Shown here: one piece after another, positions 15,907 through 64,000 of the stretch | Layout of the letters: each line of letters opens with the position of its first letter | Numbering within the stretch: the first letter of the stretch is position 1 | Source of the DNA: Bacteroidetes bacterium 2013_40CM_41_45 | GTDB lineage: Bacteria > Bacteroidota > Bacteroidia > AKYH767-A > 2013-40CM-41-45 | DNA length: 64,000 bases | Assembly (NCBI GenBank): GCA_002215675.1 | Contig: NGFH01000003.1 | Location: 80,957-144,956 of the forward strand | Direction of reading: 5' to 3' | Translations under genes and position numbers: made by a program | The notes under the pieces: generated by a model | What the model saw: only the letters and a program-made list of their open reading frames with translations | Told to the model about the DNA's origin: nothing | Database searches by the model: none

Positions 15907-15924
15907 TCAATGGGAGATTTTAAA

Positions 15925-33254: not shown

Positions 33255-33264
33255 GAGAATGAAA

Positions 33265-35191: not shown

Positions 35192-35668
35192 ATGACAATC
35201 ATTCATAAATCAGGAAATATTTTAGATGCAACAGAAAACATAATTATTCACCAAGTAAATTGTGAAGGTGTAATGGGTGCGGGTTTAGCAAAACAATTAA
35301 GAAATAAATGGCCTATAATATATACAGAATATAAAAAATTATGTGATGAAAATCGTATAAAATTTATGTTGCTCGGAAAAGTTCAATATATTAAAGTTGA
35401 TGAAAAAAAATATGTTGCAAATATGTTTTCACAATTAGGAATTGGAACTGACAAAATTCAAACAATTTATTCTGATATGAAAAAAGGTCTTAAACGTATT
35501 GAACAAGGAGCAAGATTTGATGGTCTTTCAATAGCTCTCCCTTTTCAACTAGGATGTAATCGTGCTGGTGGAGATTGGGATGGCGTAGTATATCCAATGA
35601 TTCAAGAAATTTTTAATATATCAGATGTGGATGTTGCAATTTATACATATGAATCAGAGGTCAAATGA
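35192..35668 (+). CDS. macro domain protein (ADP-ribose binding/processing)
   Basis: IIHQVNCEGVMGAGLAKQL matches the macro-domain N-terminal motif (V/I-N-x-x-N...GGG(V/L)xxA). Confidence 0.65.
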   Translation: MTIIHKSGNILDATENIIIHQVNCEGVMGAGLAKQLRNKWPIIYTEYKKLCDENRIKFMLLGKVQYIKVDEKKYVANMFSQLGIGTDKIQTIYSDMKKGLKRIEQGARFDGLSIALPFQLGCNRAGGDWDGVVYPMIQEIFNISDVDVAIYTYESEVK

Positions 35669-41659: not shown

Positions 41660-42697
41660 ATGCCCGCTAATATAATGGATAATGATAAGGTTGTTCTTTC
41701 AGGTGATGAACCAGCTTGGCATGGATTGGGTGAATATTTTGAAATTCCAATTTCTGCCGAAAAGGCTCATGATGAAATGGGTGGAAGTTTTACTCTCTAT
41801 CAAAAGCCAGTTGGTGTACAATTTGATGATGGAGAATTTATTGAAGTTCCAAAGTCATTTGCAATTGTGCGTGGTGAAACAAATAAGGATAACCGTAAGT
41901 TGGTTTTTGGATATACAACTGACCATTATACAGTCATTCAACCAATTGATATTATAAAAAAGTTTGATGAACGTGTTGGGGTTTCAATTTCAAGTTTAGG
42001 TTTTATTCAAGATGGTCGTAAAATGTTTTTGTCTTGGAAACTTCCTTCTTTTGAAGTTGTAAAGGGTGATGAAATAAAATTGTACGGTTGTTTGTTAGTT
42101 GGATATGATAAGATATTTTCAAGTCGTATCAATATTGGAACAATTCGTATTGTCTGTGAAAATACTTTTATGGCTAATATGAATGAAGCTGAACAAGAAA
42201 ATAAAAGTAATCGTGGTCGTGGAACAATCTATTCCGGCAAGCATTCTAATTCAAAATTACTTTTTGAATTGGGAGAATGGATGAATCATATTCAAGGAAA
42301 TGCTGAAAAAGAACAAGCTTTACTACAATCATTTTTTAAGAATTTGGTCAATAAACCAATTAAACATGAAAAGCAAGCGCAAGATTTAATTTATACTGCA
42401 TGGCCTGACCCTGCTCCATTTAATCCAGATTCAATTCCTTTGGCTTTACATGATAAGGAACAAGGTAAAATTGATTTAAAGGCCGCAAGAGTTGAAAAAA
42501 TTCGTAATGGTGTATATGATTTATACACTGGTAGCGAAGGAATTGCTATTGATGAAAATTATTATGGACTCTTCAATGCTTGCACACAATATTTCAACCA
42601 TAAAATGATTTCAAAAAAGGATGATGCATTTTCAATTTCATGGGGTGGTCGTTCGGCTGAAATGAATATGTTTGCTGAAGTATTAAAGAATAATTAA
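41660..42697 (+). CDS. hypothetical protein (345 aa)
   Basis: Strong RBS AAAAGGAGAAAA. Long ORF. Confidence 0.6.
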   Translation: MPANIMDNDKVVLSGDEPAWHGLGEYFEIPISAEKAHDEMGGSFTLYQKPVGVQFDDGEFIEVPKSFAIVRGETNKDNRKLVFGYTTDHYTVIQPIDIIKKFDERVGVSISSLGFIQDGRKMFLSWKLPSFEVVKGDEIKLYGCLLVGYDKIFSSRINIGTIRIVCENTFMANMNEAEQENKSNRGRGTIYSGKHSNSKLLFELGEWMNHIQGNAEKEQALLQSFFKNLVNKPIKHEKQAQDLIYTAWPDPAPFNPDSIPLALHDKEQGKIDLKAARVEKIRNGVYDLYTGSEGIAIDENYYGLFNACTQYFNHKMISKKDDAFSISWGGRSAEMNMFAEVLKNN

Positions 42698-42699
42698 TT

Positions 42700-42738
42700 A
42701 TAGATTTAGAGCCTGTTGAGACATACAGGCTCTAAATT
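42700..42738 (+). terminator. terminator-like hairpin (TTTAGAGCCTG...CAGGCTCTAAA)
   Basis: 11-bp perfect stem immediately before the next promoter. Confidence 0.5.
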
Positions 42739-42743
42739 GCCTC

Positions 42744-42772
42744 TTGACAAAATAATCATAATCTGCTATAAT
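42744..42772 (+). promoter_or_regulatory. sigma70-type promoter TTGACA-N17-TGcTATAAT
   Basis: TTGACA at 42744-42749 and TATAAT at 42767-42772. Confidence 0.6.
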
Positions 42773-42803
42773 GTATATATCAATCTAAGAAAGGATGATA
42801 AAC

Positions 42804-43643
42804 ATGTTTCCAGAATATCAAGAATTTTTTAATTCAAAATCAGATAAAAGTATTCACACTCTACGCTCATATCATCAAAACATTGATTCTTTTATTAGTG
42901 CTTTGAAAATTAAGAAAGTAAAAGATTTGGAAAAAGTATCTGCTGGTACATTGCGTACTTATCGTGATTCTTTGAAAATTTCAAATGCTTCAAAAAATAC
43001 TTGGACTCGTGTTTTATCATCTTTCTTTAGTTTTATGAATGAACAAGAATATATTGATTTCAATGTTTTTGATAAGGTAAAATATCTTTCTCTTACTGAA
43101 AAAGAAAAAACAATCAATATGCCAACACAAGATGAAATTAAAATGATTATTGAATCTTGTGAAAACAAAACTACAAAATTGATGTTGAATATTATGTCAC
43201 GTATTGCTTTACGTCGTGATGAATTATCAAAAATCCAAATTAAAGATATTGACGCTGATGGTCGTATTATTATTCATGGAAAAGGAAGCAAAATTAGAAT
43301 GGTGAAACTTCCTTTGGATATTTTTGAAACAATTAAGGCTCATATTAAAAATAAACGTGTAAAGTCAGAATATCTATTTAGCTATGATGGTCATAAAATT
43401 ACGGGCGATGCAATTTATATCCGTATTAATGGATTTATTGAAACCTTGAATATTTCTGATGAACGTAAAAAGGCAATTGCACATCCTCATGCTCTACGTC
43501 ATCGTGCATTGACCACCACTTACAACGTAACTAAAGACCCATATGCTGTAAAGAATTTGGCTGGTCATTCCAATTTAGCTATTGGCGAAAGATATATTCA
43601 TGCTGAATCAAATATTTATGATGATGTTACGGAGAATTTGTAG
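42804..43643 (+). CDS. tyrosine site-specific recombinase (integrase/XerC-D family)
   Basis: Box motifs ALRRDEL (Arg I), HALRHRALT (H-x-x-R) and LAGHSNLAIGERYIH (catalytic Tyr). Confidence 0.75.
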   Translation: MFPEYQEFFNSKSDKSIHTLRSYHQNIDSFISALKIKKVKDLEKVSAGTLRTYRDSLKISNASKNTWTRVLSSFFSFMNEQEYIDFNVFDKVKYLSLTEKEKTINMPTQDEIKMIIESCENKTTKLMLNIMSRIALRRDELSKIQIKDIDADGRIIIHGKGSKIRMVKLPLDIFETIKAHIKNKRVKSEYLFSYDGHKITGDAIYIRINGFIETLNISDERKKAIAHPHALRHRALTTTYNVTKDPYAVKNLAGHSNLAIGERYIHAESNIYDDVTENL

Positions 43644-46935: not shown

Positions 46936-48030
46936 ATGGAACTAGAATTACTTGCTTTTATCAAACATAATCCTGATTGGAAAACAATTCTTCAGGAAAA
47001 ACCATATGGAATAACTATCAAAGAAAAAAATGGTTATATTCTCTTTATGTACAGTCAAATTGAAAGTGATTTCAAATTATCTTTAGTACGTGAATGTCGT
47101 GGTTTGATTTTACGTGAAAAAGATTTAAAACCTGTTTGTATGGCTTTCAAAAAATTCGGAAATTATGGTGAAAGTTATGTTCCCGATATTGACTGGTCAA
47201 ATGTTAAAGTACAAGAAAAAGCTGACGGTTCGATAATTAAATTGTGGTTTGATAATAATGAATGGCATGTTTCTACAAATGGAACAATTGATGCATCTGA
47301 TGCTTCACTATCAGAAAATTCAATGTTAATAGATGGATGTATTTATAAAAATTATTCTGAATTATTTCATAGTGTTTTTCCACAAAATTTATATTATGAT
47401 GTTTTGAATATTGATTTATGCTATATCTTTGAATTAGTTTCAAATTTTAATAGAGTTGTGATTCCTTATAATGAAACAGCATTGTACCATATTGGCACTA
47501 GAAATATGAAAACCCTAGAAGAATTAGACATTGACATTGGAATTAAAAAACCAAAATTATATAATTTAACTTCATTAGAAGAAATTTTAGAAATAGTAAA
47601 AAAATTACCATTCAATGATGAAGGATATGTTATTTTAGACAAATTTTGGAATAGATTAAAAATAAAATCATTAGCATATATTTCTGCTCATCATTTAAAA
47701 AATAATGGTGTTGTTACAAAGAATCGTGTTCTTGATATGATTAGAACCGGCGAACAATCTGAGTTTCTTAATTATTATCCAGAATATCAAGAAATTTTTA
47801 ATGAAGTCCAAAATAAAATTAATAAACTTTTGGTATCCATTGAACATGATTATATTCTTTTCAAAAACAGAAAATTTGAAGATAGAAAAGAAATGGCATT
47901 ATGGGTAAATCAAACTGTTTGTCCGTCTGCTATATATAGTTTATATGATAAAAAAGTATCAGATGTAAATAGTTTTGTTTTCGGATTAACTAATGAGCGT
48001 TTATTGAAAATGATTGGAGAAAAAGAATGA
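46936..48030 (+). CDS. ATP-dependent RNA ligase, T4 Rnl1-like
   Basis: Motif I VQEKADGS (K at ~aa 95), motif IV DEGYVILDK, motif V RLKIKSLAY. 364 aa. Confidence 0.65.
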   Translation: MELELLAFIKHNPDWKTILQEKPYGITIKEKNGYILFMYSQIESDFKLSLVRECRGLILREKDLKPVCMAFKKFGNYGESYVPDIDWSNVKVQEKADGSIIKLWFDNNEWHVSTNGTIDASDASLSENSMLIDGCIYKNYSELFHSVFPQNLYYDVLNIDLCYIFELVSNFNRVVIPYNETALYHIGTRNMKTLEELDIDIGIKKPKLYNLTSLEEILEIVKKLPFNDEGYVILDKFWNRLKIKSLAYISAHHLKNNGVVTKNRVLDMIRTGEQSEFLNYYPEYQEIFNEVQNKINKLLVSIEHDYILFKNRKFEDRKEMALWVNQTVCPSAIYSLYDKKVSDVNSFVFGLTNERLLKMIGEKE

Positions 48031-48941
48031 CTGAACTAAGATTTCTTGTTGGAATTCCTGCAAGTGGAAAATCTACTTTTGCAAAAGAGATTTTAAAAGA
48101 TAATAATTATGTTCTTGTTTCATCGGATTCATATCGTGAAAAAATTTATGGTTCGGAAGAAATTCAAGGAAATAAAAATGAACTTTTTGAAATTATCAAT
48201 AAAGATATTATTCAATATCTTATGGATGGTAAATCTGTAATTTTTGATGCGACAAATATAGATTTAAAAAAGAGAATGGAATTAATAAAAAAAATAAATT
48301 CAAAAGTTTCAGATATTTATATAACAGCACAAGTTGTTGCAACCCAATATAAAATCTGCTTGGAAAACAACAGGAAACGGACACGTTTCGTCCCCGAATT
48401 CGTTATTAAGCGCATGTATGAAAATTTTACTTTTCCTCAAAATTTTGAAGGTATTCACAATGTCTTTATTCGGTATGATTATGATAAATATGATTATCGT
48501 CAAGAATGGCTTGAAGAACTAATGGATGATTTCAACCAAGATAATCCCCATCATAGTTCTACGCTTGGTCAGCACACACTTAAGGTTTTTGAAAATATTT
48601 TGACTGTTGCTCCCGATAATCATAGATTGCAATTGGCCGCTAAATTTCACGATATAGGAAAATTATATACAAAGACTTATAAAGATTCAAAAGGAAATCA
48701 GAAAGATTTTGCCAGTTATTATAATCATGAGCAAGTTTCGACATATGAATCTATGTTTTATCTTAAAGAAAAAAATATTCAAAATTTTGATATGTTCTAT
48801 ATTCTTGGATTGATTCAATTTCATATGAGGTTATATGGAATCAATTCTGATAAAAGCAGAGATAAACTTATAAATCTCATTGGTAGACAAATGTATGAAG
48901 ATTTAATTTTATTAAATGATGCAGATAAAAATGGAAAATAA
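48027..48941 (+). CDS. P-loop polynucleotide kinase fused to HD-domain phosphohydrolase (RNA end-healing enzyme)
   Basis: Walker A GIPASGKST. HD motifs HHSSTLGQH...KFHDIGK. 4-nt overlap with the ligase gene. Confidence 0.65.
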   Translation: MTELRFLVGIPASGKSTFAKEILKDNNYVLVSSDSYREKIYGSEEIQGNKNELFEIINKDIIQYLMDGKSVIFDATNIDLKKRMELIKKINSKVSDIYITAQVVATQYKICLENNRKRTRFVPEFVIKRMYENFTFPQNFEGIHNVFIRYDYDKYDYRQEWLEELMDDFNQDNPHHSSTLGQHTLKVFENILTVAPDNHRLQLAAKFHDIGKLYTKTYKDSKGNQKDFASYYNHEQVSTYESMFYLKEKNIQNFDMFYILGLIQFHMRLYGINSDKSRDKLINLIGRQMYEDLILLNDADKNGK

Positions 48942-50061
48942 TATAGAAAAAATAATAAAATTTTTAAATATAAAAAATTATATTTTCATTGATAATTACC
49001 ATAAAAATAATCAAATAAGAGTTATTATCCAAGACAAACTTGGCTATAAATATGATGTTCAATTTGGAAATTTAAGTGTTCAAAAGCCAAAAATTGTCCA
49101 TAAATTCAATCCCTTTAGTTTAGAAAATATAGGAATATGGATAAAGATAAATAAAAAGAATTTTTTATTATTGAAAAATAATATTTATCTAAATGCCAAT
49201 GAAAAGTTAAGATTTAAATGTTTGGATAATAAATGTAAAGAAATTTTTTTCGCAAGTTGGCATTCAATTTTTAGTGGTAGAGGATGCACATTTTGTTCTG
49301 GTTTTGAAGTTGGCAGACATAATAATTTAGAATATTTATTTCCTGAAATTGCAAAAGAATGGGATAAATCAAATTTTATAAAAGCATTTGAAATTACCTG
49401 TGGTTCAACAGAAAATATTTTATGGAAATGTAAAAAATGTGGTTATAAGTGGAATGCTTCTCCGAATCAAAGAACTTATTATAAAACGGGTTGTCCTTCT
49501 TGTTCTGGATTAATTGTTTCGGATAGTAATAGATTGTCTATTTTATTTCCAGAAATATCAAAGGAATGGCATCCAATAAAAAATGGGAATTTGACTCCAA
49601 ATGATATTAGTTATGGAAGCAATAAGAAATTTTGGTGGCTATGCCCAAAAGGACATGAATATTATTCTGCTGTTAATAATAGAATAAATGGAAGGAATTG
49701 TAAAAAATGCAAAATTAAAAAAGGTGAAAAAGAAATTATTAAAATTCTTGATATTTATAATGTAAAATATAAATTTCAATGTAATGATTTTAAAGATTGC
49801 AGAGACAAAATTGTTTTATATTTTGATTTTTATTTACCTGACTATAATATTTGTATTGAATATCAGGGAATTCAACATTATGAACCAATTGATTTTGCTG
49901 GTCGCGGTAAGAAATGGGCAAAAGAAGAATTTAAGAAAAATAAAAGAAGAGATAAAATCAAGATAAAATATTGTCAGAAAAATAATATTAAATTGATTAT
50001 TATACCTTATTGGAATTTTGATGAAATTGAAAATATTTTAAAAAGGAATTTGAAAATATGA
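48931..50061 (+). CDS. Zn-ribbon-repeat (DUF4379-like) protein with C-terminal nuclease-like module
   Basis: Repeats LFPEIAKEW...CPSCSG and LFPEISKEWHP...W.CPKGHEY. C-terminus is FDFYLPDYNICIEYQGIQHYEP. The start is uncertain (48916 or 48931). Confidence 0.6.
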   Translation: MENNIEKIIKFLNIKNYIFIDNYHKNNQIRVIIQDKLGYKYDVQFGNLSVQKPKIVHKFNPFSLENIGIWIKINKKNFLLLKNNIYLNANEKLRFKCLDNKCKEIFFASWHSIFSGRGCTFCSGFEVGRHNNLEYLFPEIAKEWDKSNFIKAFEITCGSTENILWKCKKCGYKWNASPNQRTYYKTGCPSCSGLIVSDSNRLSILFPEISKEWHPIKNGNLTPNDISYGSNKKFWWLCPKGHEYYSAVNNRINGRNCKKCKIKKGEKEIIKILDIYNVKYKFQCNDFKDCRDKIVLYFDFYLPDYNICIEYQGIQHYEPIDFAGRGKKWAKEEFKKNKRRDKIKIKYCQKNNIKLIIIPYWNFDEIENILKRNLKI

Positions 50062-50222
50062 ATGTTTATCATGTCAAAATAAATATAATCATATTAATAA
50101 TGTGTACAATTCTAGTCTTTTTTGTTGACAATCTATATCATAAACATTATTTAGATTGTGCATATAACTTAATGGGTGTTTTGGGATTACTTATAATGTA
50201 TAATCTAACAAAAGGAAAATAA

Positions 50223-50447
50223 ATGGAGGTAGCAATGAATAGAGAAACTGTTAAATTTCACTTGGAAAATATTAGAAATAATAAAAGTAAAGATGGTCAC
50301 ATTCAAGATTTAAAATTAGAGATTAGTTCATTGCGAATTATGGCCTTTAAATATAAAGGAAGTGGTTTGGCTAAGGTTGCAGAAAAAAGAGCAAACGATA
50401 TTGAAAAGGAATTAACATTAGCTATTTTGGACGCAAAAAGAAAATGA
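50223..50447 (+). CDS. hypothetical protein
   Basis: RBS AAAGGAAAA. Confidence 0.45.
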   Translation: MEVAMNRETVKFHLENIRNNKSKDGHIQDLKLEISSLRIMAFKYKGSGLAKVAEKRANDIEKELTLAILDAKRK

Positions 50448-50965
50448 ATTATAATCCAAAAAATCAAGGTGGTCTTGATAGTTTATGTTCAGTATATAGT
50501 ATTATCAATGCTTATGGAATAACGATGAATGCCACCGATAATGAACAACAAAAATTATTTAATGATATTATTGCATATCTTTCTAAAAAAAGAATTTTGA
50601 AAGACGTAATTATTGGTGGTGTTTATCATAAGCATATGGTAATGATGTTGGAAGATGTTGTTGGAGATAGAATACCAGTAAAAAATCTAATATGGAAAAG
50701 TTTTCCAACACCAACAAAAAGAATTTTCTGGAATTCAATTGTAGAACATTTATCAAATGAAAATAATGCTGTAATTTTAAGTATGGGTGGTAGGCGTGAC
50801 CATCTATCATCAGCATATCAAGCAACAGATAAATCAATAAAATTATTGGATTCTAATGGAATGAAATCAATTAGATATAAAGATTCAACTACTGATACAA
50901 GTGTTCACACAATAAAAAAATTCATGCTTTATCCAAGTCAATGTTGGTTTTTATCTAAGGAATAA
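50444..50965 (+). CDS. hypothetical protein with candidate Cys...His peptidase-like arrangement (DSLCSVYS ... GGVYHKH)
   Basis: 173 aa. The functional call is speculative. Confidence 0.4.
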   Translation: MNYNPKNQGGLDSLCSVYSIINAYGITMNATDNEQQKLFNDIIAYLSKKRILKDVIIGGVYHKHMVMMLEDVVGDRIPVKNLIWKSFPTPTKRIFWNSIVEHLSNENNAVILSMGGRRDHLSSAYQATDKSIKLLDSNGMKSIRYKDSTTDTSVHTIKKFMLYPSQCWFLSKE

Positions 50966-50966
50966 A

Positions 50967-51857
50967 ATGAAAAATTTAAAAATAATTTTTGAAACTAAAG
51001 CAGGTTCACATCTTTATGGAACAAACACTATATCTAGCGATATGGATTATCGTGGTGTTGGCGTTGTTCCAATTAAAGATATGCTTGACCCCTTCCAAGA
51101 ATTCAATCAATTTGAAGATAATGAATCTGATGATAGAATTATTTATGGATTGAAAAAATTTATGAAATTGGCAAGCGATATGAACCCCAATGTTTGTGAA
51201 TTGTTATATGCAAACGAAAATTCTATTATTAAATTAACAAAACAAGGTAAAATTCTTTTAGATAATAGAAACTTATTTCTATCACAACTTGCACGAAAAA
51301 CATTTTTTGGATATGCAGTTGCACAATTGAAAAGAATTGAATTACATAAGAATTATCTTTTAAATCCTCCAAAAAATAAACCTAATCGTGAAGATTATGG
51401 TTTGCCAGCTATGCCAAATTTTGGATTGGAAAAAATTGTCAACATGATTCATTCTCCACAAGAAACTATTGCACCTGAATGGCGTGAATATGCATTAAAA
51501 GAAAAATCATATCGTGATGCTTCAGACAATTATCAAAAATATGAACAGTGGAAAAATAATAGAAATCCAAAACGTGCATTACTAGAAGAAAAATGGGGGT
51601 ATGATTTAAAGCATTCTAATCATTTATATAGACTTTTGACTGAAGGAAGAGAATTATTAGAAACAGGAAATATTGTATTTCCTTTAAGAAATGTTGATAA
51701 ATTAAAATTTATTTTAAATGGTGGTATGACTTACAATGATTTGATGGAAGAAGTAAATGAATTAAATAAACTTTTTGAAAATTGTAAATCTAATTTACCA
51801 AATAAACCAAATATCAATAAATTAAAAGAATTATATTATAAAATTCTAGGAATATAA
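50967..51857 (+). CDS. predicted nucleotidyltransferase (Pol-beta superfamily, GS-x10-DMD)
   Basis: AGSHLYGTNTISSDMDYRGVGV. 296 aa. Confidence 0.55.
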   Translation: MKNLKIIFETKAGSHLYGTNTISSDMDYRGVGVVPIKDMLDPFQEFNQFEDNESDDRIIYGLKKFMKLASDMNPNVCELLYANENSIIKLTKQGKILLDNRNLFLSQLARKTFFGYAVAQLKRIELHKNYLLNPPKNKPNREDYGLPAMPNFGLEKIVNMIHSPQETIAPEWREYALKEKSYRDASDNYQKYEQWKNNRNPKRALLEEKWGYDLKHSNHLYRLLTEGRELLETGNIVFPLRNVDKLKFILNGGMTYNDLMEEVNELNKLFENCKSNLPNKPNINKLKELYYKILGI

Positions 51858-55415: not shown

Positions 55416-55658
55416 ATGAAACAAAAAAAAACTTGTAAACATAATGGCAAAATATTAATTACAAAATATTTTAAAACATCAACTCAAATTTCCATTGAAA
55501 ATAATGAACACGAAGAATTTTATGATGAAGATTATCATGAAGGAAAATATTATAAGGTTGAAGGATATTGTTGTCAATGTAAAAAAAATTGGTCTGCAAA
55601 AAGTATTTCAAAACTTCCAAAATTTTTTGAAAATAGATTGGAAGAATCATCTTACTAG
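55416..55658 (+). CDS. hypothetical protein (CKHNG...CCQCKK)
   Basis: 80 aa. Confidence 0.4.
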   Translation: MKQKKTCKHNGKILITKYFKTSTQISIENNEHEEFYDEDYHEGKYYKVEGYCCQCKKNWSAKSISKLPKFFENRLEESSY

Positions 55659-55669
55659 AGGTTTATAAT

Positions 55670-56119
55670 ATGGACATTGGAAGTGGTAAAGGATTTCCAG
55701 CATCAAATTTATCTAATTTTTCACCACACCCTTTTGAAATTGATGGTGTTATGTGTAATAGCATGGAGGGATTTCTTCAATCTTTAAAATTTAAAGATGT
55801 TGCCATGCAAGAATATGTTTGCACATTAGTTGGATTAAAGGCAAAATTTAAAGGCAAAGATAAAAAATGGTGGAAGACTCAAACTCTCTGGTGGAGAGGT
55901 GTTGAAATTGATAGGCATTCAAATGAATATCAATTACTTTTAGATAGAGCATATAATGAATTGTCCAAAAATGAATCTTTCAAAAGAGCATTGTTGGCAA
56001 CAGGAAATTCATCTTTGAAACATTCCATTGGAAAAAATGATGCTCATAAAACCATTTTGACTGTGAATGAATTTTGCGGTAGATTATTAAAAATCAGAGA
56101 AGGATTGAAAAATGAATGA
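55670..56119 (+). CDS. NADAR (YbiA/DUF1768) domain protein
   Basis: SNFSPHPFEIDGVMCNSMEGFLQSLKF matches the NADAR core (SNF...PF..DG......E..fQ..KF). Confidence 0.65.
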   Translation: MDIGSGKGFPASNLSNFSPHPFEIDGVMCNSMEGFLQSLKFKDVAMQEYVCTLVGLKAKFKGKDKKWWKTQTLWWRGVEIDRHSNEYQLLLDRAYNELSKNESFKRALLATGNSSLKHSIGKNDAHKTILTVNEFCGRLLKIREGLKNE

Positions 56120-56946: not shown

Positions 56947-57281
56947 ATAATAATTATTGTCCAATGCATGAAGGTAAAATAGTTCTTCTAAAACTTATGC
57001 CAGAATATTCTTCAAGCGGTATTTGGTGTGAATGTGGCCTTAGTTTCGGAAATCCTGAAATATTAGATTTATCAAAAGGATTGATTGATTTAGTTGAGGG
57101 CTGGAATTTAATGTGGGAAATGGCGCAAGATGATAAAAATTTAAATAAAGAATATTTTGAAAGAATATTTGTTGATATGGGCAATGAACTTTGTTCACAA
57201 GTTAGTAAAATTATTCCATGTTATTTTGACTCAAATATTATAAATGAAAAATGGTTTTGGGATGAAAAAAATGAATATTAA
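56943..57281 (+). CDS. hypothetical protein
   Basis: RBS AAGGAA. ATGA overlap. Confidence 0.45.
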   Translation: MNNNYCPMHEGKIVLLKLMPEYSSSGIWCECGLSFGNPEILDLSKGLIDLVEGWNLMWEMAQDDKNLNKEYFERIFVDMGNELCSQVSKIIPCYFDSNIINEKWFWDEKNEY

Positions 57282-57861
57282 TCAACAAAAAGAAATCACT
57301 AATGAAGTAATGGAACAAATATTTCCAATAGATTTATATAGTATTGTTGCTGGTGGCGCACCTAGAGACTGGTATTTCCATCGTGAAGCTTCAGATATTG
57401 ATATATTTCTTCATCGTCCAGATTTACAAACATCTTGGAGTTTCGTTGAAACATTTAAATCTATTGGATTATCAGTATCACAACTTGGAAGCAATTTAAC
57501 AAATCATCCAATATATGCTAAAAATATGTTGATTGATAAAGTGTTTGAATGTGAATATAAAAAATTAAAATTTCAATTTATTAATATGAAAGAAAAAACA
57601 TTCACATCGGTTGTTCCACAATTTCCATTAACTATTTGTAAAGCTTGGTATAAAAATGGAGAAATAAATACTTATCCTGATTTTGATGCCACCGTAAAAA
57701 ATAATGTCATAGTAAAAGTAAATGATTTATATGCAGATGGAGATAAGTATATAGAAAAAATAAGAAATAAATTTCCTTATTTTCAATATTTTGATAGTTA
57801 TGAATCTTATGGAAAATATGCTTTGAATCATATTGATTATCATAATAATATACCATTTTAA
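57271..57861 (+). CDS. nucleotidyltransferase with CCA-adding/poly(A)-polymerase-type head motif (GGAPRD...DIDIF)
   Basis: IVAGGAPRDWYFHREASDIDIFL. Confidence 0.45.
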   Translation: MNINQQKEITNEVMEQIFPIDLYSIVAGGAPRDWYFHREASDIDIFLHRPDLQTSWSFVETFKSIGLSVSQLGSNLTNHPIYAKNMLIDKVFECEYKKLKFQFINMKEKTFTSVVPQFPLTICKAWYKNGEINTYPDFDATVKNNVIVKVNDLYADGDKYIEKIRNKFPYFQYFDSYESYGKYALNHIDYHNNIPF

Positions 57862-57872
57862 AGGAAATAGAT

Positions 57873-58214
57873 ATGGCTATTTATGTAAAAAATGAAAAGA
57901 AAGATGGAGACAAATCTTTTCCGGGTAGAATGGTATATATCGGAAGACCATCAATACTTGGAAATCCATATTCTCATTTGTCAAATACTTTGGCTGAATT
58001 CAAGGTAAAAAATAGAAAAGAAGCCATTGACAAATATAAGGAAATGTTTTATAATAGGATATTGTACGATGTTGAATTTAGAACGGCAATTGATTCTATT
58101 GTAAAAGATGCTTTTATTGGTCATAATATTTATTTGTTCTGCTGGTGTAAACCATTTGCTTGTCATGGTGATATTATAAAAGAATATATTGAAAGTAAAT
58201 TGAGGAATAAATGA
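57873..58214 (+). CDS. hypothetical protein (GNPY motif, DUF4326-like)
   Basis: 113 aa. Confidence 0.4.
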   Translation: MAIYVKNEKKDGDKSFPGRMVYIGRPSILGNPYSHLSNTLAEFKVKNRKEAIDKYKEMFYNRILYDVEFRTAIDSIVKDAFIGHNIYLFCWCKPFACHGDIIKEYIESKLRNK

Positions 58215-58783
58215 CCATATTTTTTACGGCTGATACACATTTTGGACATAAGAATATCATAAAACTTTGTAATCGTCCATTCAATGATGTTGACGAGATG
58301 AATAGAGAAATGATTTCAAGATGGAATTCCAAAGTTACAAAAAATGATATTATCTATCATTTGGGAGATTTTTCTTTTGGTGGATGGAATTTTGCATCAT
58401 CTATATTTCAACAGCTTCATGGCTCAACTATGGTATTGCAAGGTAATCATGATGATTGGTATAGAAATGCTACCAATATCAATGTTCACACAATACCAAA
58501 TTTGAGTGAAATCAACATTCCTGAATTAAAAATTGATGGTCATGAACAAAAAATAATTTTATGTCATTATCCAATGCGTTCATGGAATAAATCTTTTCAT
58601 GGTTCATGGCATTTATTTGGTCATGTTCATGGAACTTTAGAACCATATGGACTTTCATTTGATTGTGGTGTAGATACCAATAATTTTTATCCTTATTCTT
58701 TGAATGATGTAAAAGATAAAATGATTATTTTACAATCTGAGATAGATAACAATAAAAAGGATTATCATGTGCCTATTGTGTAA
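58211..58783 (+). CDS. calcineurin-like metallophosphoesterase
   Basis: Motifs DTHFGH, GDFSF and GNHD. Confidence 0.7.
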   Translation: MTIFFTADTHFGHKNIIKLCNRPFNDVDEMNREMISRWNSKVTKNDIIYHLGDFSFGGWNFASSIFQQLHGSTMVLQGNHDDWYRNATNINVHTIPNLSEINIPELKIDGHEQKIILCHYPMRSWNKSFHGSWHLFGHVHGTLEPYGLSFDCGVDTNNFYPYSLNDVKDKMIILQSEIDNNKKDYHVPIV

Positions 58784-60424: not shown

Positions 60425-60506
60425 GAGAATATGATGGAATGCAGACATGCCAACCTTAGAAGTTGGTGCTAGAAATAGCATACTGGTTCAAATCCAGTTA
60501 TTCTCA
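60425..60506 (+). tRNA. tRNA-Leu(TAG), type II
   Basis: Hand fold gives acceptor GAGAATA/TATTCTC, anticodon stem CCAAC/GTTGG with loop CTTAGAA, a long variable arm, and T-arm ACTGG-TTCAAAT-CCAGT. Confidence 0.7.
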
Positions 60507-60510
60507 CTAT

Positions 60511-60585
60511 GCTGATATGAAGGGAATTGGCATACCTATTTCGCTTAAAACGAAATGTTTACAGGTTCGACTCCTGTTATCAGCA
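60511..60585 (+). tRNA. tRNA with anticodon TAA (reads UUA; Leu by anticodon) but short variable loop (type I-like)
   Basis: Acceptor GCTGATA/TATCAGC. Anticodon stem TTTCG/CGAAA with loop CTTAAAA. T-arm ACAGG-TTCGACT-CCTGT. 75 nt. Confidence 0.5.
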
Positions 60586-60599
60586 CAAACAATCACTAT

Positions 60600-60685
60600 G
60601 TTCATGTGGCTGGAATTTGGTAGACGCGGCAGTTTCAAAAACTGTTATCTGAAAAGATGTGTGAGTTCGATTCTCTCCATGAACA
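60600..60685 (+). tRNA. tRNA-Leu(CAA), type II
   Basis: Acceptor GTTCATG/CATGAAC. Anticodon loop TTCAAAA. Variable arm ATCT-GAAA-AGAT. 86 nt. Confidence 0.6.
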
Positions 60686-60689
60686 CTAT

Positions 60690-60761
60690 GTCCCATTATT
60701 TCAATGGATAGAATAAAACGCTACGAACGTTTTGGTGCGAGTTCGACTCTTGCATGGGACT
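60690..60761 (+). tRNA. tRNA-Arg(ACG)
   Basis: Acceptor GTCCCAT/ATGGGAC. Anticodon stem AAACG/CGTTT with loop CTACGAA. T-arm GCGAG-TTCGACT-CTTGC. Confidence 0.65.
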
Positions 60762-60787
60762 CAAAAATTAAATGAAAAGGATGTTTT

Positions 60788-61102
60788 ATGAATAAATTTT
60801 GGTGTATATTTAGAATATTTTTTAAGAATACACTAGGAGAACTTTATGCTATTATGATAGGTGTGCCATTAGTTATAATAGTTTTTTTATTGATTTCTCA
60901 TTGGATAAGTAATTATGGAATTTATATAAAATCTTTTCTTTATAATATTCTTTATCAAATTTGTTTATTTTTATATTTATATAAAGATTTTATTATTTAT
61001 TTTCTATTTTCAATTTTCAATTTATTTTATATTTATGGATTTTATTCTGCATTGAAATATCAATGGAATAAAGCCAAAAAAGAATACAGTGGTATATTAT
61101 GA
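60788..61102 (+). CDS. small membrane protein
   Basis: 104 aa, hydrophobic. Lies between tRNA groups. Confidence 0.4.
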   Translation: MNKFWCIFRIFFKNTLGELYAIMIGVPLVIIVFLLISHWISNYGIYIKSFLYNILYQICLFLYLYKDFIIYFLFSIFNLFYIYGFYSALKYQWNKAKKEYSGIL

Positions 61103-61455
61103 GATTTCAAATTGCACAAAAAGGTGAAAAAAGAGATGTGGAAGGATTTCTTTGGCTTCCAAGAGGCTTTGATGGCAATGAAATAAGATGGTTAGAACAT
61201 GCTAAATGGAGAGAATATTATGATGGTATTAATTGGATATTTTACTATTGGAATGATTAAACGCAGTTAATAAAGGAAATATTTTATTAATAAAAAAATA
61301 GAGTTGGGCATATTCGTATGGATTGTAGTAAGTTTATTGTATTTTATAATTCTAGGATTTACTTTACGTCATATAATGTTACTATCATTTGGCTTTATTT
61401 ATGGGATTTTAAAAATAATTTCATCAATTGATGAAACGTGAATTTTATCAATAAT

Positions 61456-61536
61456 GAGTTTGTAGCCTATTGGGATGGCATCTGCCTCTTAAGCAGACAG
61501 AGTAATCTAGAACAGGTTCGATTCCTGTCAGACTCA
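61456..61536 (+). tRNA. atypical tRNA, anticodon CTT (Lys by anticodon) with 3-bp D-stem and 14-nt variable region
   Basis: Acceptor GAGTTTG/CAGACTC (one G-U pair). Anticodon stem TCTGC/GCAGA with loop CTCTTAA. T-arm ACAGG-TTCGATT-CCTGT. Confidence 0.45.
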
Positions 61537-61549
61537 CAGAAATAAAAAT

Positions 61550-61635
61550 GGAAGAATGCATTCATGGGAATAACTAGTCTTGAAAACTAGGCTACCGAGT
61601 AGCCCTCGATAACGGTTCGATTCCGTATCCTTCCT
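61550..61635 (+). tRNA. tRNA-Ser(TGA), type II (boundaries approximate)
   Basis: Anticodon stem CTAGT/ACTAG with loop CTTGAAA. Variable arm GCTAC-CGA-GTAGC. T-loop TTCGATT. Confidence 0.5.
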
Positions 61636-61672
61636 CTAGTAAGAAAAATTCATTTTCAAAAGGATATTAAAA

Positions 61673-61804
61673 ATGTCGCCAAAGAATGAAGTTACTAAAA
61701 AATATTTGATTACAAGAGATGAAGAAGTTTTCACTGATTGGCTTTTCAAAAGTCAGGTGAGCGATTATATTCGCAGAGGATATATCGTTGAAGAAATAAA
61801 GTAA
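61673..61804 (+). CDS. small hypothetical protein (43 aa) between tRNAs
   Basis: Manual translation gives MSPKNEVTKKYLITRDEEVF... Confidence 0.3.
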   Translation: MSPKNEVTKKYLITRDEEVFTDWLFKSQVSDYIRRGYIVEEIK

Positions 61805-61810
61805 TGAATT

Positions 61811-61900
61811 GGAATCATGACAGAGTAGCAATGTGTATGTTTGCTAAACATAAGCCACCAGTAACATGATGCGTAGGTGCAAATCCTACTGATTCCGCCA
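61811..61900 (+). tRNA. tRNA-Ser(GCT), type II, with encoded 3' CCA
   Basis: Acceptor GGAATCA/TGATTCC. Anticodon stem TATGT/ACATA with loop TTGCTAA. T-arm GTAGG-TGCAAAT-CCTAC. CCA at 61898-61900. Confidence 0.55.
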
Positions 61901-61903
61901 AAT

Positions 61904-61974
61904 GACACCTATTCCTACCGGGTGGGGAATTGTCTGCAAAACAATTAATAGAGATTCGACTTCTCTAGGTGTCT
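61904..61974 (+). tRNA. tRNA-Cys(GCA)
   Basis: Acceptor GACACCT/AGGTGTC. Anticodon stem ATTGT/ACAAT with loop CTGCAAA. T-arm AGAGA-TTCGACT-TCTCT. Confidence 0.65.
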
Positions 61975-62005
61975 CTTTCAGCATTTGTTGAAACAGGAGC
62001 AAATA

Positions 62006-62143
62006 ATGAAAATTGAAAAAGCAAACAAAAGAGATAAAAAACGCTTCAAAAAGAAGAATGGAATGATTGTTGGAAATAAAAGTATTTTTATAATACAAGA
62101 AATACAAATAAAGAAATCGAATAAATTAAAGAAAAATAAATAA
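62006..62143 (+). CDS. small basic peptide (45 aa) between tRNAs
   Basis: RBS CAGGAG. Sequence is MKIEKANKRDKKRFKKKNGM... Confidence 0.3.
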   Translation: MKIEKANKRDKKRFKKKNGMIVGNKSIFIIQEIQIKKSNKLKKNK

Positions 62144-62147
62144 TTAT

Positions 62148-62220
62148 GTGTTTGTAGTGTAGTTAGTCTGCACGTTTGCCTGAAGAGCAGAAAGTGCTAG
62201 TGCAATTCTAGCCGGACACA
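62148..62220 (+). tRNA. tRNA-Phe(GAA)
   Basis: Acceptor GTGTTTG/CGGACAC (two G-U pairs). D-stem GTGT/GCAC. Anticodon loop CTGAAGA. T-arm GCTAG-TGCAATT-CTAGC. Confidence 0.6.
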
Positions 62221-62224
62221 CTAT

Positions 62225-62301
62225 CCTCCAATATACCCTCGTTCTTATAAAGCGCAGAAAGGTTAATTGGTGACATGATGGTTCGAGTCCATCTTGGAGG
62301 A
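62225..62301 (+). ncRNA. tRNA-like element: perfect 7-bp acceptor stem and canonical T-arm, but no anticodon arm found by hand
   Basis: CCTCCAA...GATGG-TTCGAGT-CCATC-TTGGAGG-A. No 5-bp/7-nt-loop pairing fits in the intervening 45 nt. Confidence 0.35.
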
Positions 62302-62305
62302 CTCT

Positions 62306-62378
62306 ATTCCTATAACTCAATAGTAGAGTGTCCGTTTTACATGCGGAATGTTGGGGGTGCAAGTCCCTCTAGGAATAC
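62306..62378 (+). tRNA. tRNA-Val(TAC)
   Basis: Acceptor ATTCCTA/TAGGAAT. D-stem ACTC/GAGT. Anticodon stem TCCGT/GCGGA with loop TTTACAT. T-arm GGGGG-TGCAAGT-CCCTC. Confidence 0.65.
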
Positions 62379-62399
62379 TAAAATTTAAGGAGAATAAAA

Positions 62400-62648
62400 A
62401 TGAATGAAAATGATATAGAACACATTATTAATCAAATGAAATATATTCCTATTAGAAATTTTTATCATGCAGATAGATATGATACAGATAATGAATATGT
62501 TATTCATCTTTGGACTGAAATAGGTCAAAAAAATTTTGACATTAGAATTAAAAAAGAAAAAATTAAATGTCCATATTGTGACGATTTTTATTATGAGGGT
62601 GGTTGGGCAAATCATTTATTAATGAAACATCATCAACATGCTGGATAA
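62400..62648 (+). CDS. hypothetical protein (CPYC ... HLLMKHHQH zinc-finger-like)
   Basis: RBS AAGGAGAA. Confidence 0.5.
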   Translation: MNENDIEHIINQMKYIPIRNFYHADRYDTDNEYVIHLWTEIGQKNFDIRIKKEKIKCPYCDDFYYEGGWANHLLMKHHQHAG

Positions 62649-62656
62649 ATTATAAA

Positions 62657-62911
62657 ATGAGACAAGTTAAACTTTTATATTTCAAATCATATGGTAAATA
62701 TTATTCTGAAGGTTCGTATGCTACTCAAAAAGAATATGATTTTGATGTTTATACCGAAGTAGAAAATATGTTTTTAATTGGTAGTTATCCGGGACTATAT
62801 AACACTGGAAAACCTCATGAATTTGATTGTGTTATTTTCCCTGAAAATGGTGTTCCCGGAATTCTTTATGCAAAAGAAATACAAAATTTATTTAAGATGA
62901 TTAATGGCTAA
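62657..62911 (+). CDS. hypothetical protein
   Basis: Start re-set to MRQVKL. Confidence 0.45.
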   Translation: MRQVKLLYFKSYGKYYSEGSYATQKEYDFDVYTEVENMFLIGSYPGLYNTGKPHEFDCVIFPENGVPGILYAKEIQNLFKMING

Positions 62912-63149
62912 ATTTGATTTAAGACCGATAATGGAATTTCAAGTAAAAGTTGTTTTGACCGAAGAAGAAGCTAGGGCGTTGCAATATATTTGTAAATATG
63001 GTGCAGATACTTTAATCAAAGGCTTGGATACTGTCATGACCACAAAAGAAATTAGCAAGGGAATCAGAAGTCTTGTTCGTGATACACAAGATTCTATAAA
63101 TAAACAAATTAGTAAAATTGATGAAGCTAGAAAAGTAGTTGAAGAATAA
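62904..63149 (+). CDS. hypothetical protein
   Basis: 81 aa. Confidence 0.45.
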   Translation: MAKFDLRPIMEFQVKVVLTEEEARALQYICKYGADTLIKGLDTVMTTKEISKGIRSLVRDTQDSINKQISKIDEARKVVEE

Positions 63150-63152
63150 TTG

Positions 63153-63446
63153 ATGAAATTTATGTTTTATGGAAATAATATAATTATGTTCAAACAAAAA
63201 TGTCCAATATGTGATTCAAAATTAGAATATGATATTGATAATTTAGATTTTTATCTAATGGAAGAGCATTATAATTGCCCCAATAAAGATTATTCTTATT
63301 CATATGAATATGGAATGACAAACATAACAATAGGAAATAAAGAATTTAATTATACTTATTTGGATAGCAATGTAAAAAAAGCTTTAATTTTAAAAGAAAT
63401 CAAATTAGAGACTGAAAGATTGAAGTCCTTGACAAGATTAGAATAA
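63153..63446 (+). CDS. hypothetical protein (CPICD...CPNKD)
   Basis: 97 aa. Confidence 0.4.
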   Translation: MKFMFYGNNIIMFKQKCPICDSKLEYDIDNLDFYLMEEHYNCPNKDYSYSYEYGMTNITIGNKEFNYTYLDSNVKKALILKEIKLETERLKSLTRLE

Positions 63447-63483
63447 TATGGTATAATTATATTAAATTAGAAAGGAATTATTT

Positions 63484-63708
63484 ATGAAATCATATCATAT
63501 TGTTTTATTGTCTGCTTTGGCAACTTTGTGTGCTTTATTTTCTTTTGTTAATTCTGTTCGAGATATGGAAATTGATAATAATGCTTTCATTCTCGAAACA
63601 AATAACTATGACTTAATTATTGCTCATAATGATAATCATGTTGAATTTAATTTGAATTATTTTTATGGTAATAAAGCATATCAAATAGAAAAAATTTTTA
63701 TTTTTTAG
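63484..63708 (+). CDS. secreted/membrane small protein (N-terminal signal-like helix)
   Basis: RBS AGGAA. 74 aa. Confidence 0.45.
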   Translation: MKSYHIVLLSALATLCALFSFVNSVRDMEIDNNAFILETNNYDLIIAHNDNHVEFNLNYFYGNKAYQIEKIFIF

Positions 63709-63819
63709 TTATTTATTGACTGTTTTTGGTGCATAGTCAAATTTATATCGTAATGATATAAGGGACGCTTGGCGACCTACATAGAAAAGCATAGTAACCA
63801 TATTTATTAAAAATTAAAT

Positions 63820-63891
63820 GCTGTTTTGGTCTATTGGCTAAGACAATTCTTTCTCAAAGAATTATGATGGGTTCGATTCCCATAAACAGCA
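63820..63891 (+). tRNA. tRNA-Glu(CTC)
   Basis: Acceptor GCTGTTT/AAACAGC. D-stem GTCT/AGAC. Anticodon stem ATTCT/AGAAT with loop TTCTCAA. T-arm ATGGG-TTCGATT-CCCAT. Confidence 0.6.
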
Positions 63892-64000
63892 CAAATATAA
63901 AAGACACGCACAGTAATCAAACCCAATTCAACCGTTAATTGAAAAATAAGTGTCTTGAAAAATAATTTATATATGTACAGATAGACTCTCACAGCAAATA

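What the first reader, a model, noticed from the sequence alone, without database searches (positions are those of the whole stretch)
55670..56119. NADAR (YbiA-like) domain protein: candidate reversal of guanine ADP-ribosylation
SNFSPHPFEIDGVMCNSMEGFLQSLKF closely follows the NADAR/DUF1768 core. NADAR enzymes have been reported to hydrolyse ADP-ribose from guanine bases (DarT2-type modification) and to act on NAD/ADPR-derived riboflavin intermediates. A phage carrying both a macro domain and a NADAR domain suggests counter-defence against DNA ADP-ribosylating toxins of two chemistries (T-linked and G-linked).
Basis: partly seen in the sequence, partly recalled or inferred. Interest (0 to 1): 0.6.

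Follow-up and report, generated by a model that had tools for sequence, protein, structure and literature searches.

The report
Phage NADAR (AdfN-type) anti-DarT1 enzyme
This 149-residue gene of an uncultivated phage is an ordinary member of the well-known phage NADAR (T4 gp30.3/AdfN) family.

Summary
The ORF at 55670-56119 (+) is real. It is a full-length member of Pfam Phage_30_3 (E 9e-53), the "phage NADAR" family whose T4 prototype gp30.3 was renamed AdfN in 2025. AdfN is a guanine-specific DNA ADP-ribosylglycohydrolase that neutralises DarTG1.

The window protein keeps:
- the two mutationally validated catalytic residues (E33 and K40, equal to T4 E36 and K43);
- the family-defining His (H118);
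- the C-terminal helix that is lost in the inactive RB69 allele.

Its AlphaFold model (pLDDT 94) matches only the three solved NADAR structures. It is not a YbiA-type or DarG1-type NADAR. It stands alone, with no ADP-ribosyltransferase gene detected in the window or called next to its relatives and no T4 synteny.

It matches the DarG model (E 6e-24) and PhiKZ AdfM, but carries Gln where DarG has its catalytic Lys, as SCO6735 does. A dual G-linked plus T-linked counter-defence is therefore plausible, but both halves are known kinds.

Verdict: correct, ordinary, low novelty.

The parts
55670..56119 (+). Coding sequence (149 aa plus stop) of a phage NADAR / gp30.3 / AdfN-family protein
   Evidence: ORF list. 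Pfam Phage_30_3 E 9.2e-53, full length. 37% identity to T4 gp30.3, E 3e-25. AF2 model pLDDT 94.4. PDB fold hits are only YbiA, PnNADAR and GlNADAR.
55657..55661 (+). Shine-Dalgarno-like AGAGG, 8 nt upstream of the ATG; overlaps the TAG stop of the upstream ORF (55656-55658)
   Evidence: Read directly from the sequence. The N-terminus MDIGS aligns with the N-termini of homologues.
55706..55792 (+). N-terminal catalytic core, residues 13-41 (NLSNF...SMEGFLQSLKF). It holds N16, F22, E33 (codon 55766-55768) and K40 (codon 55787-55789).
   Evidence: These residues are invariant in 30 diverse family members. E33 and K40 align with T4 AdfN E36 and K43, which were mutated in PMC11825919. They also align with YbiA E48 and K55, which correspond to PnNADAR E43 and K50, the ADP-ribose contacts (PMC11543638; YbiA-Pn alignment).
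56021..56023 (+). Codon of H118, the His that defines phage NADARs (Glu in the YbiA family, Asp in DarG1/BC4488)
   Evidence: Invariant in alignments A1 and A2. Aligns with T4 H123. In HHalign it falls at, or one residue from, the YbiA 'LVEH' Glu. The subfamily rule is stated in PMC11543638, PMC11125620 and PMC12945103.
56063..56110 (+). C-terminal alpha-helix (residues 132-147), containing invariant E134 and the nearly invariant F135, L139 and R143
   Evidence: DSSP on the AF2 model gives H132-147. It aligns with the T4 C-terminal helix. Truncation of that helix, as in the RB69 allele, reduces AdfN activity (PMC11825919).
35192..35668 (+). Separate gene 20 kb upstream, not part of the NADAR gene: a stand-alone ALC1-class macrodomain (158 aa), a candidate AdfM/DarG2-like enzyme. 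N23 is conserved; Q81 occupies the DarG K80 position.
   Evidence: phrog_335, E 1.2e-35. PDB sequence hits: Mtb DarG macro 5m3i (1.8e-13), Bt_1257, SCO6735 5e3b and Taq DarG 5m31. PADLOC DarG E 6.2e-24, over the macro part of the model only. 27% identity to PhiKZ AdfM gp104. No Pfam hit at E<=0.01.

Best explanation
The ORF encodes a core-only NADAR-fold enzyme of the phage gp30.3/AdfN family.

Shown here: family membership, fold, and retention of the catalytic residues.

Inferred from the characterised T4 orthologue:
- During infection the protein binds the ADP-ribose moiety attached to the N2 of guanine in phage DNA. The contacts would be E33, K40, W75 and H118.
- It hydrolyses the N-glycosidic bond, releasing ADP-ribose and restoring unmodified guanine.
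- This erases the replication- and transcription-blocking marks written by a host DarT1-type toxin, or another guanine-specific ADP-ribosyltransferase.
- It therefore acts as an 'orphan antitoxin' that defeats DarTG1 abortive infection.

It should be specific for G-linked ADP-ribose and inactive on T-linked (DarT2) marks.
For: - Family: Phage_30_3 E 9.2e-53, full length. 37% identity to T4 gp30.3/AdfN with no large gaps.
- Residues: E33 and K40 equal T4 E36 and K43. H118 equals T4 H123. All are invariant across 30 diverse representatives, together with N16, F22, G62, W75, L108, T128, T131 and E134.
- The C-terminal helix is present.
- Fold: AF2 pLDDT 94.4, pTM 0.89. The only PDB matches with Foldseek probability of at least 0.94 are YbiA 2b3w (E 1.3e-5, TM 0.64), PnNADAR 8bau and GlNADAR 8bat. 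BFVD returns gp30.3-like phage proteins at TM 0.93-0.95, followed by dozens of proteins annotated as NADAR.
- Profile comparison: HHalign of the family profile against YbiA gives 95% probability, E 3.4e-8, over 128 columns. It aligns N16, E33, K40 and W75 to YbiA N31, E48, K55 and the Trp equivalent to PnW89.
- Function of the prototype: PMC11825919 shows adfN is necessary and sufficient against DarTG1, the purified protein de-ADP-ribosylates DNA, the E36A and K43A mutants are impaired, and there is no effect on DarTG2. PMC11125620 and PMC12945103 show the T4 NADAR cleaves G-ADPr, not T-ADPr or C-ADPr.
- Selection: the gene is 70-77% identical between large phage contigs that share almost no other genes.
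Against: - No experiment has been done on this protein.
- It is only 37% identical to T4 AdfN and sits in a different subclade.
- There is no T4 synteny: no homologues of gp30.1, 30.2, 30.4 or 61.2 in the window. T4 AdfN needs an unidentified T-even factor for full activity (PMC11825919), so behaviour may differ here.
- The host is unknown (metagenomic contigs, 28% GC), so it is unknown whether the host lineage carries DarTG1.
- All NADAR subfamilies cleave G-ADPr in vitro, including RNA G-ADPr (PMC12945103). In vitro chemistry therefore does not by itself fix the physiological target.
- The direct Pfam NADAR score is below threshold.
Confidence: 0.72

Rival explanations
1. The chemistry is the same (guanine-ADPr hydrolysis) but the physiological target differs. 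The enzyme would reverse G-ADP-ribosylation written by non-DarT toxins (pierisin/ScARP-like or YarT-like ARTs), or G-ADPr on RNA/tRNA, rather than DarT1 marks on phage DNA.
For: All NADAR families remove DNA and RNA G-ADPr in vitro, and YarT-YbiA is a second ART-NADAR pair (PMC11125620, PMC12945103). The window is rich in RNA-repair genes: Rnl1-like ligase, PNK/HD, RlaP, a CCA-adding-like enzyme and 11 tRNAs. In related locus L010 a PNK-like kinase gene ends 1 nt before the NADAR gene.
Against: The only in vivo role demonstrated for this subfamily is anti-DarTG1 action on DNA (PMC11825919). Neighbourhoods are not conserved, so the RNA-repair proximity is probably incidental.
Confidence: 0.15
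2. It is a YbiA-like small-molecule N-glycosidase. It would hydrolyse reactive riboflavin-pathway intermediates or other NAD/ADPR-derived metabolites in the infected cell.
For: It shares the fold and the N-terminal Glu/Lys motif with E. coli YbiA. There is a weak TIGR02464 hit, E 6e-5. Some relatives sit among nucleotide-metabolism genes such as NrdD, dUTPase, TK and ThyX.
Against: TIGR02464 scores 23.3 bits against a cutoff of 73.7. The YbiA-defining Glu is replaced by His, and the downstream D..W motif (Pn D130/W133) is absent. No riboflavin genes were detected in the window. T4 AdfN acts on DNA (PMC11825919).
Confidence: 0.04
3. It is a housekeeping eraser for the phage's own ADP-ribosyltransferases (Alt/ModA/ModB-like), limiting collateral ADP-ribosylation rather than countering a host toxin.
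For: In T4, gene 30.3 lies about 3 kb from alt. Phages do encode ARTs.
Against: No ART domain was detected in the 64-kb window or among the genes called within 10 kb of the four relatives examined. T4 delta-adfN has a specific DarTG1 phenotype (PMC11825919).
Confidence: 0.04

Closest known systems
T4 gp30.3 = AdfN (anti-DarT factor NADAR), Pfam PF08010 Phage_30_3
   Same: Same Pfam family, full length. 37% identity. Same size and core-only architecture. The catalytic Glu and Lys, the family-specific His and the C-terminal helix are all conserved. It is a stand-alone 'orphan' gene with no toxin partner.
   Different: A different subclade: 60-67% identical to the Enterobacter, Citrobacter, Aeromonas and Vibrio T4-like phage versions, and 70-79% identical to many metagenomic ones. 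There is no 30.2/30.4 synteny and no AdfA (gp61.2) in the window. The phage is uncultivated, has 28% GC and an unknown host. Whether it depends on a T-even-specific helper factor is unknown.
DarG1 antitoxin NADAR (BC4488 family; G. lovleyi 8BAT, E. coli C7 NADAR)
   Same: NADAR fold (Foldseek probability 0.96, TM 0.60). Same predicted reaction, hydrolysis of guanine-N2-ADP-ribose on DNA. Same Glu/Lys ADP-ribose contacts.
   Different: His instead of Asp in the last strand. It lacks the basic N-terminal beta/alpha extension thought to bind ssDNA. It is not encoded next to a DarT1 gene. It gives no PADLOC hit.
E. coli YbiA (2B3W) / TIGR02464 riboflavin-intermediate N-glycosidase
   Same: Best structural match (E 1.3e-5, TM 0.64). 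HHalign 95%. Shares the SNF...E...K N-terminal motif.
   Different: The YbiA-defining Glu is replaced by His. Scores are far below the TIGR02464 and Pfam NADAR cutoffs. There is an extra beta-hairpin insertion (residues 72-81). The gene is in a phage rather than a LexA-operon context.
AdfN-Bas32 and AdfN-Bas60 (independently acquired phage NADARs)
   Same: Phage-encoded stand-alone NADARs that neutralise DarT1 and are specific for G-ADPr.
   Different: According to PMC11825919 they belong to other NADAR clades, not the gp30.3 family. They were not compared directly here.

Membership tests
Phage NADAR / gp30.3 / AdfN (Pfam PF08010) | Full-length profile match above the curated cutoff | tested here: met
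   178.2 bits against a cutoff of 36, profile positions 1-138 of 138. All 30 diverse relatives also match.
Phage NADAR / gp30.3 / AdfN (Pfam PF08010) | Catalytic Glu and Lys (T4 E36, K43) | tested here: met
   E33 and K40 align to them and are invariant in A2.
Phage NADAR / gp30.3 / AdfN (Pfam PF08010) | His in the last strand, in place of the YbiA Glu or the DarG1 Asp | tested here: met
   H118 is invariant, aligns with T4 H123 and sits at the YbiA 'LVEH' site.
Phage NADAR / gp30.3 / AdfN (Pfam PF08010) | Intact C-terminal helix (lost in the inactive RB69 allele) | tested here: met
   Helix 132-147 in the AF2 model. It aligns to the end of T4 gp30.3.
Phage NADAR / gp30.3 / AdfN (Pfam PF08010) | Guanine-ADPr DNA glycohydrolase activity and rescue from DarTG1 | not testable with these tools
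   Known only for T4 AdfN (PMC11825919, PMC11125620, PMC12945103).
NADAR superfamily (PF08719, YbiA-like fold) | Pfam NADAR score above the gathering threshold | tested here: not met
   18.7 bits against 35.1, E 0.0022. Only 3 of 30 relatives reach E<=0.01. Pfam models the phage clade as its own family.
NADAR superfamily (PF08719, YbiA-like fold) | YbiA-like fold and profile-level homology | tested here: met
   The top three PDB matches are the three NADAR structures and nothing else. BFVD returns NADAR-annotated proteins. HHalign against YbiA gives 95.1%, E 3.4e-8.
NADAR superfamily (PF08719, YbiA-like fold) | ADP-ribose-contacting residues (Pn E43, K50, W89) | tested here: met
   E33, K40 and W75 align to YbiA E48, K55 and Trp. 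These align in turn to Pn E43, K50 and W89 (residue roles from PMC11543638). The mapping is by sequence only; no structural superposition was available.
YbiA subfamily (TIGR02464 riboflavin-intermediate N-glycosidase) | Score above the equivalog cutoff, and Glu in the last strand | tested here: not met
   23.3 bits against 73.7. His at the Glu position.
DarG1 antitoxin (BC4488 NADAR) | Asp in the last strand, an N-terminal DNA-binding extension, and adjacency to DarT1 | tested here: not met
   His rather than Asp. The 149-aa protein starts about 10 residues before the core. No ART domain was detected in the window or called beside four relatives. No PADLOC hit.
DarG2-like macrodomain / AdfM (for the companion ORF 35192-35668) | Match to the DarG macrodomain model, and the catalytic Asn and Lys (Taq N22, K80) | tested here: inconclusive
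   PADLOC DarG E 6.2e-24 over model positions 2-146 of 329. N23 is conserved, but the K80 position is Gln (Q81), as in SCO6735 Gln85. SCO6735 still cleaves T-ADPr DNA (PMC9411070). 27% identical to PhiKZ AdfM.

The most novel reading that the evidence does not exclude
This uncultivated low-GC phage may carry a two-enzyme eraser set against both DarT chemistries. One enzyme is an AdfN-type NADAR for G-ADPr. The other is an orphan DarG2/SCO6735-like macrodomain that uses Gln instead of the canonical Lys, for T-ADPr. The NADAR of this abundant environmental subclade may also work without the T-even-specific helper that T4 AdfN needs. That would make it a portable, self-sufficient anti-DarT1 module that spreads horizontally among unrelated large phages.
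Probability: 0.35. Interest if true: 0.4.

Novelty: new member of a known kind. Interest (0 to 1): 0.2.

Why it matters
It matters little on its own. The family has been in Pfam for years, and its function was established in 2023-2025.

Three points are useful:
- It shows that the AdfN family extends well beyond T-even coliphages: more than 4200 sequence clusters, and stand-alone copies that are 70-77% identical in large phage contigs sharing almost no other genes.
- It corrects the DarT1/DarT2 mix-up.
- It flags a phage that may hold both AdfN-like and AdfM-like erasers. That would be a convenient natural system for asking whether phages stack erasers for G- and T-linked DNA ADP-ribosylation, and whether Gln-type macrodomains act as anti-DarT2 factors.

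Tried and rejected
1. Direct assignment to Pfam NADAR or TIGR02464 was rejected. Both score below their thresholds, and the right family is Phage_30_3.
2. Sequence search of the PDB, with the single protein and with the family profile, found only a weak YbiA hit (E 1.1 and 0.0026). Fold comparison was needed.
4. A megablast of 12 kb around the gene against phage genomes found no match, so the phage has no close cultured relative.
5. T4 synteny and AdfA: tblastn and phmmer with T4 gp61.2, gp30.1, gp30.2 and gp30.4 against the window gave nothing below E about 1.
6. A conserved partner gene was sought in four related contigs. Their neighbourhoods are unrelated, so there is no candidate helper factor.
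7. The promoter and terminator scan was uninformative: fewer promoter-like sites than in shuffles and no terminators.
8. Scanning concatenated ORFs against Pfam worked for strong domains but missed weak ones. The macro and metallophosphoesterase ORFs had to be scanned individually.
9. Taxonomic placement of the phage with two large ORFs gave only 25-34% identity hits to assorted large phages. The host remains unresolved.

Full report
**Observation.** The ORF exists exactly as reported: ATG at 55670, TGA ending at 56119, + strand, 149 aa. The quoted peptide is residues 15-41. An AGAGG Shine-Dalgarno-like element lies 8 nt upstream and overlaps the stop of the preceding ORF. The stop codon overlaps the start of the next ORF (ATGAATGA), which is typical of the tightly packed co-directional gene block it sits in. 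The N-terminus MDIGS aligns with the N-termini of homologues, so the start is credible.

**What it is.** The best family match is not Pfam NADAR but Pfam PF08010 Phage_30_3. It scores E 9.2e-53, 178 bits against a cutoff of 36, and covers the whole profile. phrog_652 matches at 3.6e-47. Pfam NADAR (18.7 bits against 35.1) and TIGR02464 (23.3 against 73.7) are both sub-threshold. Only 3 of 30 diverse relatives reach NADAR at E<=0.01.

The family is very large:
- 1505 of 50,697 phage records carry it, mostly T4-like phages of Escherichia, Klebsiella, Shigella, Aeromonas, Acinetobacter and Vibrio.
- There are at least 4222 clusters at 90% identity.
- There are 1157 representatives at 50% identity, some fused to other domains or repeated in tandem.

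The window protein is 37% identical to T4 gp30.3 (E 3e-25). It is up to 67% identical to versions in cultured phages and up to 79% identical to metagenomic ones. The identical protein occurs on metagenomic contigs of up to 147 kb.

**Link to NADAR.** An AlphaFold2 model built on 47 homologues is confident (pLDDT 94.4, pTM 0.89). Foldseek against the PDB returns exactly three credible matches, and they are the three solved NADAR structures: E. coli YbiA 2B3W (E 1.3e-5, TM 0.64), Phytophthora NADAR 8BAU and Geobacter DarG1-NADAR 8BAT. Everything else has probability <=0.02.

Against predicted viral structures, gp30.3-like phage proteins match at TM 0.93-0.95. Dozens of proteins annotated 'NADAR domain' follow at TM 0.55-0.68. 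HHalign of the family profile against YbiA gives 95.1% probability, E 3.4e-8, over 128 columns.

Chaining that alignment with the YbiA-PnNADAR alignment and the residue roles in PMC11543638 gives these equivalences:

| Window protein | YbiA | PnNADAR | Role |
|---|---|---|---|
| N16 | N31 | not mapped | SNF motif |
| E33 | E48 | E43 | distal-ribose contact |
| K40 | K55 | K50 | ADP-ribose contact |
| W75 | Trp | W89 | ADP-ribose contact |
| H118 | at, or one residue from, the 'LVEH' Glu | E125 | subfamily-defining residue |

All of these, plus F22, G62, L108, T128, T131 and E134, are invariant in 30 diverse family members.

[quoted passage not shown] They are defined by a His where YbiA-type proteins have Glu and DarG1-type proteins have Asp (PMC11543638, PMC11125620, PMC12945103).

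Johannesman et al. (PMC11825919) renamed T4 gp30.3 AdfN and reported that:
- it is necessary and sufficient for resistance to DarTG1;
- the purified protein removes ADP-ribose from DarT1-modified DNA;
- the E36A and K43A mutants are impaired;
- loss of the last 15 residues (the C-terminal helix, as in RB69) reduces activity;
- it does not counter DarTG2;
- it works fully only in T-even infections, which implies an unknown helper.

The T4 enzyme cleaves G-ADPr but not T-ADPr (PMC11125620) or C-ADPr (PMC12945103). The window protein has the equivalents E33, K40 and H118, and an intact predicted helix at 132-147. It consists of the core only, without the DarG1 N-terminal extension.

**Mechanism.** Shown here: membership, fold and conservation of catalytic residues. 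Inferred from the T4 orthologue: the protein hydrolyses the N-glycosidic bond between ADP-ribose and guanine N2 in phage DNA. This removes the replication-blocking marks written by a host DarT1-type toxin, so the protein acts as an orphan antitoxin.

My confidence by level:
- family membership and fold: about 0.97;
- G-ADPr hydrolase activity: about 0.8;
- anti-DarT1 as the physiological role: about 0.65.

The last figure is lower because the host is unknown and all NADARs cleave G-ADPr in vitro.

**Context.** The window has 28.3% GC and about 142 mostly small + strand ORFs, with no structural genes. It is an accessory or early region rich in RNA-repair and conflict-related genes. No megablast match exists among 50,697 phage genomes. 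Two large ORFs find only 25-34% identity hits in assorted large phages.

There are no homologues of T4 gp30.1, 30.2, 30.4 or AdfA (gp61.2). No ADP-ribosyltransferase domain was detected in the window. In four related contigs the NADAR gene is 70-77% identical, while almost nothing else is shared and the neighbours differ entirely. In two of them the neighbours are nucleotide-metabolism genes. The gene is therefore a stand-alone unit that is strongly conserved and probably horizontally mobile.

The macro domain is real: ORF 35192-35668, 158 aa, 20 kb upstream. It has no Pfam hit at E<=0.01. The other evidence is:
- phrog_335 at 1.2e-35;
- best solved relatives in the ALC1-class group: Mtb DarG 5M3I (1.8e-13), Bt_1257, SCO6735 and Taq DarG;
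- the PADLOC DarG model at 6.2e-24, over the macrodomain part only, as for PhiKZ AdfM at 4.4e-39;
- 27% identity to PhiKZ AdfM, which was shown in 2026 to counter DarTG2 (PMC13309987).

However, the DarG K80 position is Gln (Q81). This matches SCO6735 Gln85, and SCO6735 nevertheless cleaves thymidine-ADPr (PMC9411070). A dual G-linked and T-linked eraser set is therefore plausible but unproven, and the two genes are not linked in an operon.

Guanine is the DarT1 target and thymidine is the DarT2 target.

**Rivals.**
- Another G-ADPr source or RNA G-ADPr as the target (0.15). The in vitro data allow it, but the only in vivo phenotype known for the subfamily is against DarTG1.
- A YbiA-like small-molecule N-glycosidase (0.04). 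This is disfavoured by the His substitution, the missing D..W motif and the sub-threshold TIGR02464 score.
- An eraser for the phage's own ARTs (0.04). No ART was found.

**Verdict.** The gene is an ordinary new member of a characterised family, so interest is low. The only mildly novel angle is the possible pairing with a Gln-type DarG-like macrodomain in an uncultivated phage, together with the family's breadth and mobility outside T-even phages.

Noticed in passing
window 35192-35668 (+): Stand-alone macrodomain ORF (158 aa). It matches the PADLOC DarG model (6e-24) and PhiKZ AdfM (27% identity), with DarG and SCO6735 as its best solved relatives. It has Gln (Q81) at the DarG catalytic Lys position and a TARG1-like 'MGAGLA' loop. 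It is missed by Pfam at E<=0.01. It is a candidate anti-DarT2 eraser of the SCO6735 type.
   Followed up: partly
window 60425-63892 (+): Cluster of 11 tRNA genes: Leu x3, Arg, Lys, Ser x2, Cys, Phe, Val and Glu. It begins about 4 kb downstream of the NADAR gene.
   Followed up: no
window 46936-51857 (+), 23948-24631 (+), 33259-34356 (+): RNA-repair style gene set:
- T4 Rnl1-like RNA ligase (46936-48030; Pfam hit precomputed for the identical gene in L001)
- AAA_33 kinase plus HD phosphohydrolase (48027-48941)
- RlaP nucleotidyltransferase (50967-51857)
- PolyA_pol/CCA-adding head domain (23948-24631)
- a second ligase-like ORF with a PHA02142 OB-fold (33259-34356)

This suggests defence against anticodon nucleases.
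   Followed up: no
window 41660-43643 (+); L008 11028-11915: A tyrosine recombinase (integrase, 42795-43643) lies next to a DUF932 gene inside what looks like a large lytic-type phage accessory region. In related contig L008 an integrase gene lies about 570 bp downstream of the NADAR gene. These may mark mobile cassettes.
   Followed up: no
window 1621-2097 (-), 10686-10898 (-), 13483-14001 (+), 15910-16347 (+), 17488-17808 (+), 40318-41070 (+): Other conflict-related domains: YspA/SLOG, HicA toxin, SprT-like protease, Fic, DUF6891 and an N6-adenine DNA methyltransferase. These were found only by scanning concatenated ORFs.
   Followed up: no
window 57244-58783 (+): Just downstream of the NADAR gene lie a nucleotidyltransferase (phrog_10174, 57244-57861), a DUF4326 protein (57873-58214) and a metallophosphoesterase (phrog_547, 58211-58783). 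They have overlapping stops and starts. The trio is not found next to the NADAR gene in the other contigs examined.
   Followed up: partly
L008-L011 compared with the window: The NADAR gene is 70-77% identical between large phage contigs (83-317 kb) whose flanking 20 kb otherwise share only 1-3 weakly similar genes. This implies unusually strong conservation or recent horizontal spread of this subclade.
   Followed up: partly
representative proteins P0138, P0169, P0229, P0248 and others: Many gp30.3-family domains occur in longer proteins of 250-760 aa. One 480-aa protein has three matched stretches, which suggests fusions and tandem NADAR repeats outside the stand-alone phage form. The architectures were not examined.
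   Followed up: no
literature compared with L005 and L007 (T4 record): PMC11125620 lists its T4 phage NADAR construct as 'gp30.3; residues 1-208'. The T4 gp30.3 CDS in AF158101 encodes 152 aa, while T4 gp61.2 (AdfA) is 208 aa. The discrepancy is unresolved. PMC11825919 showed the activity of T4 AdfN independently.
   Followed up: no
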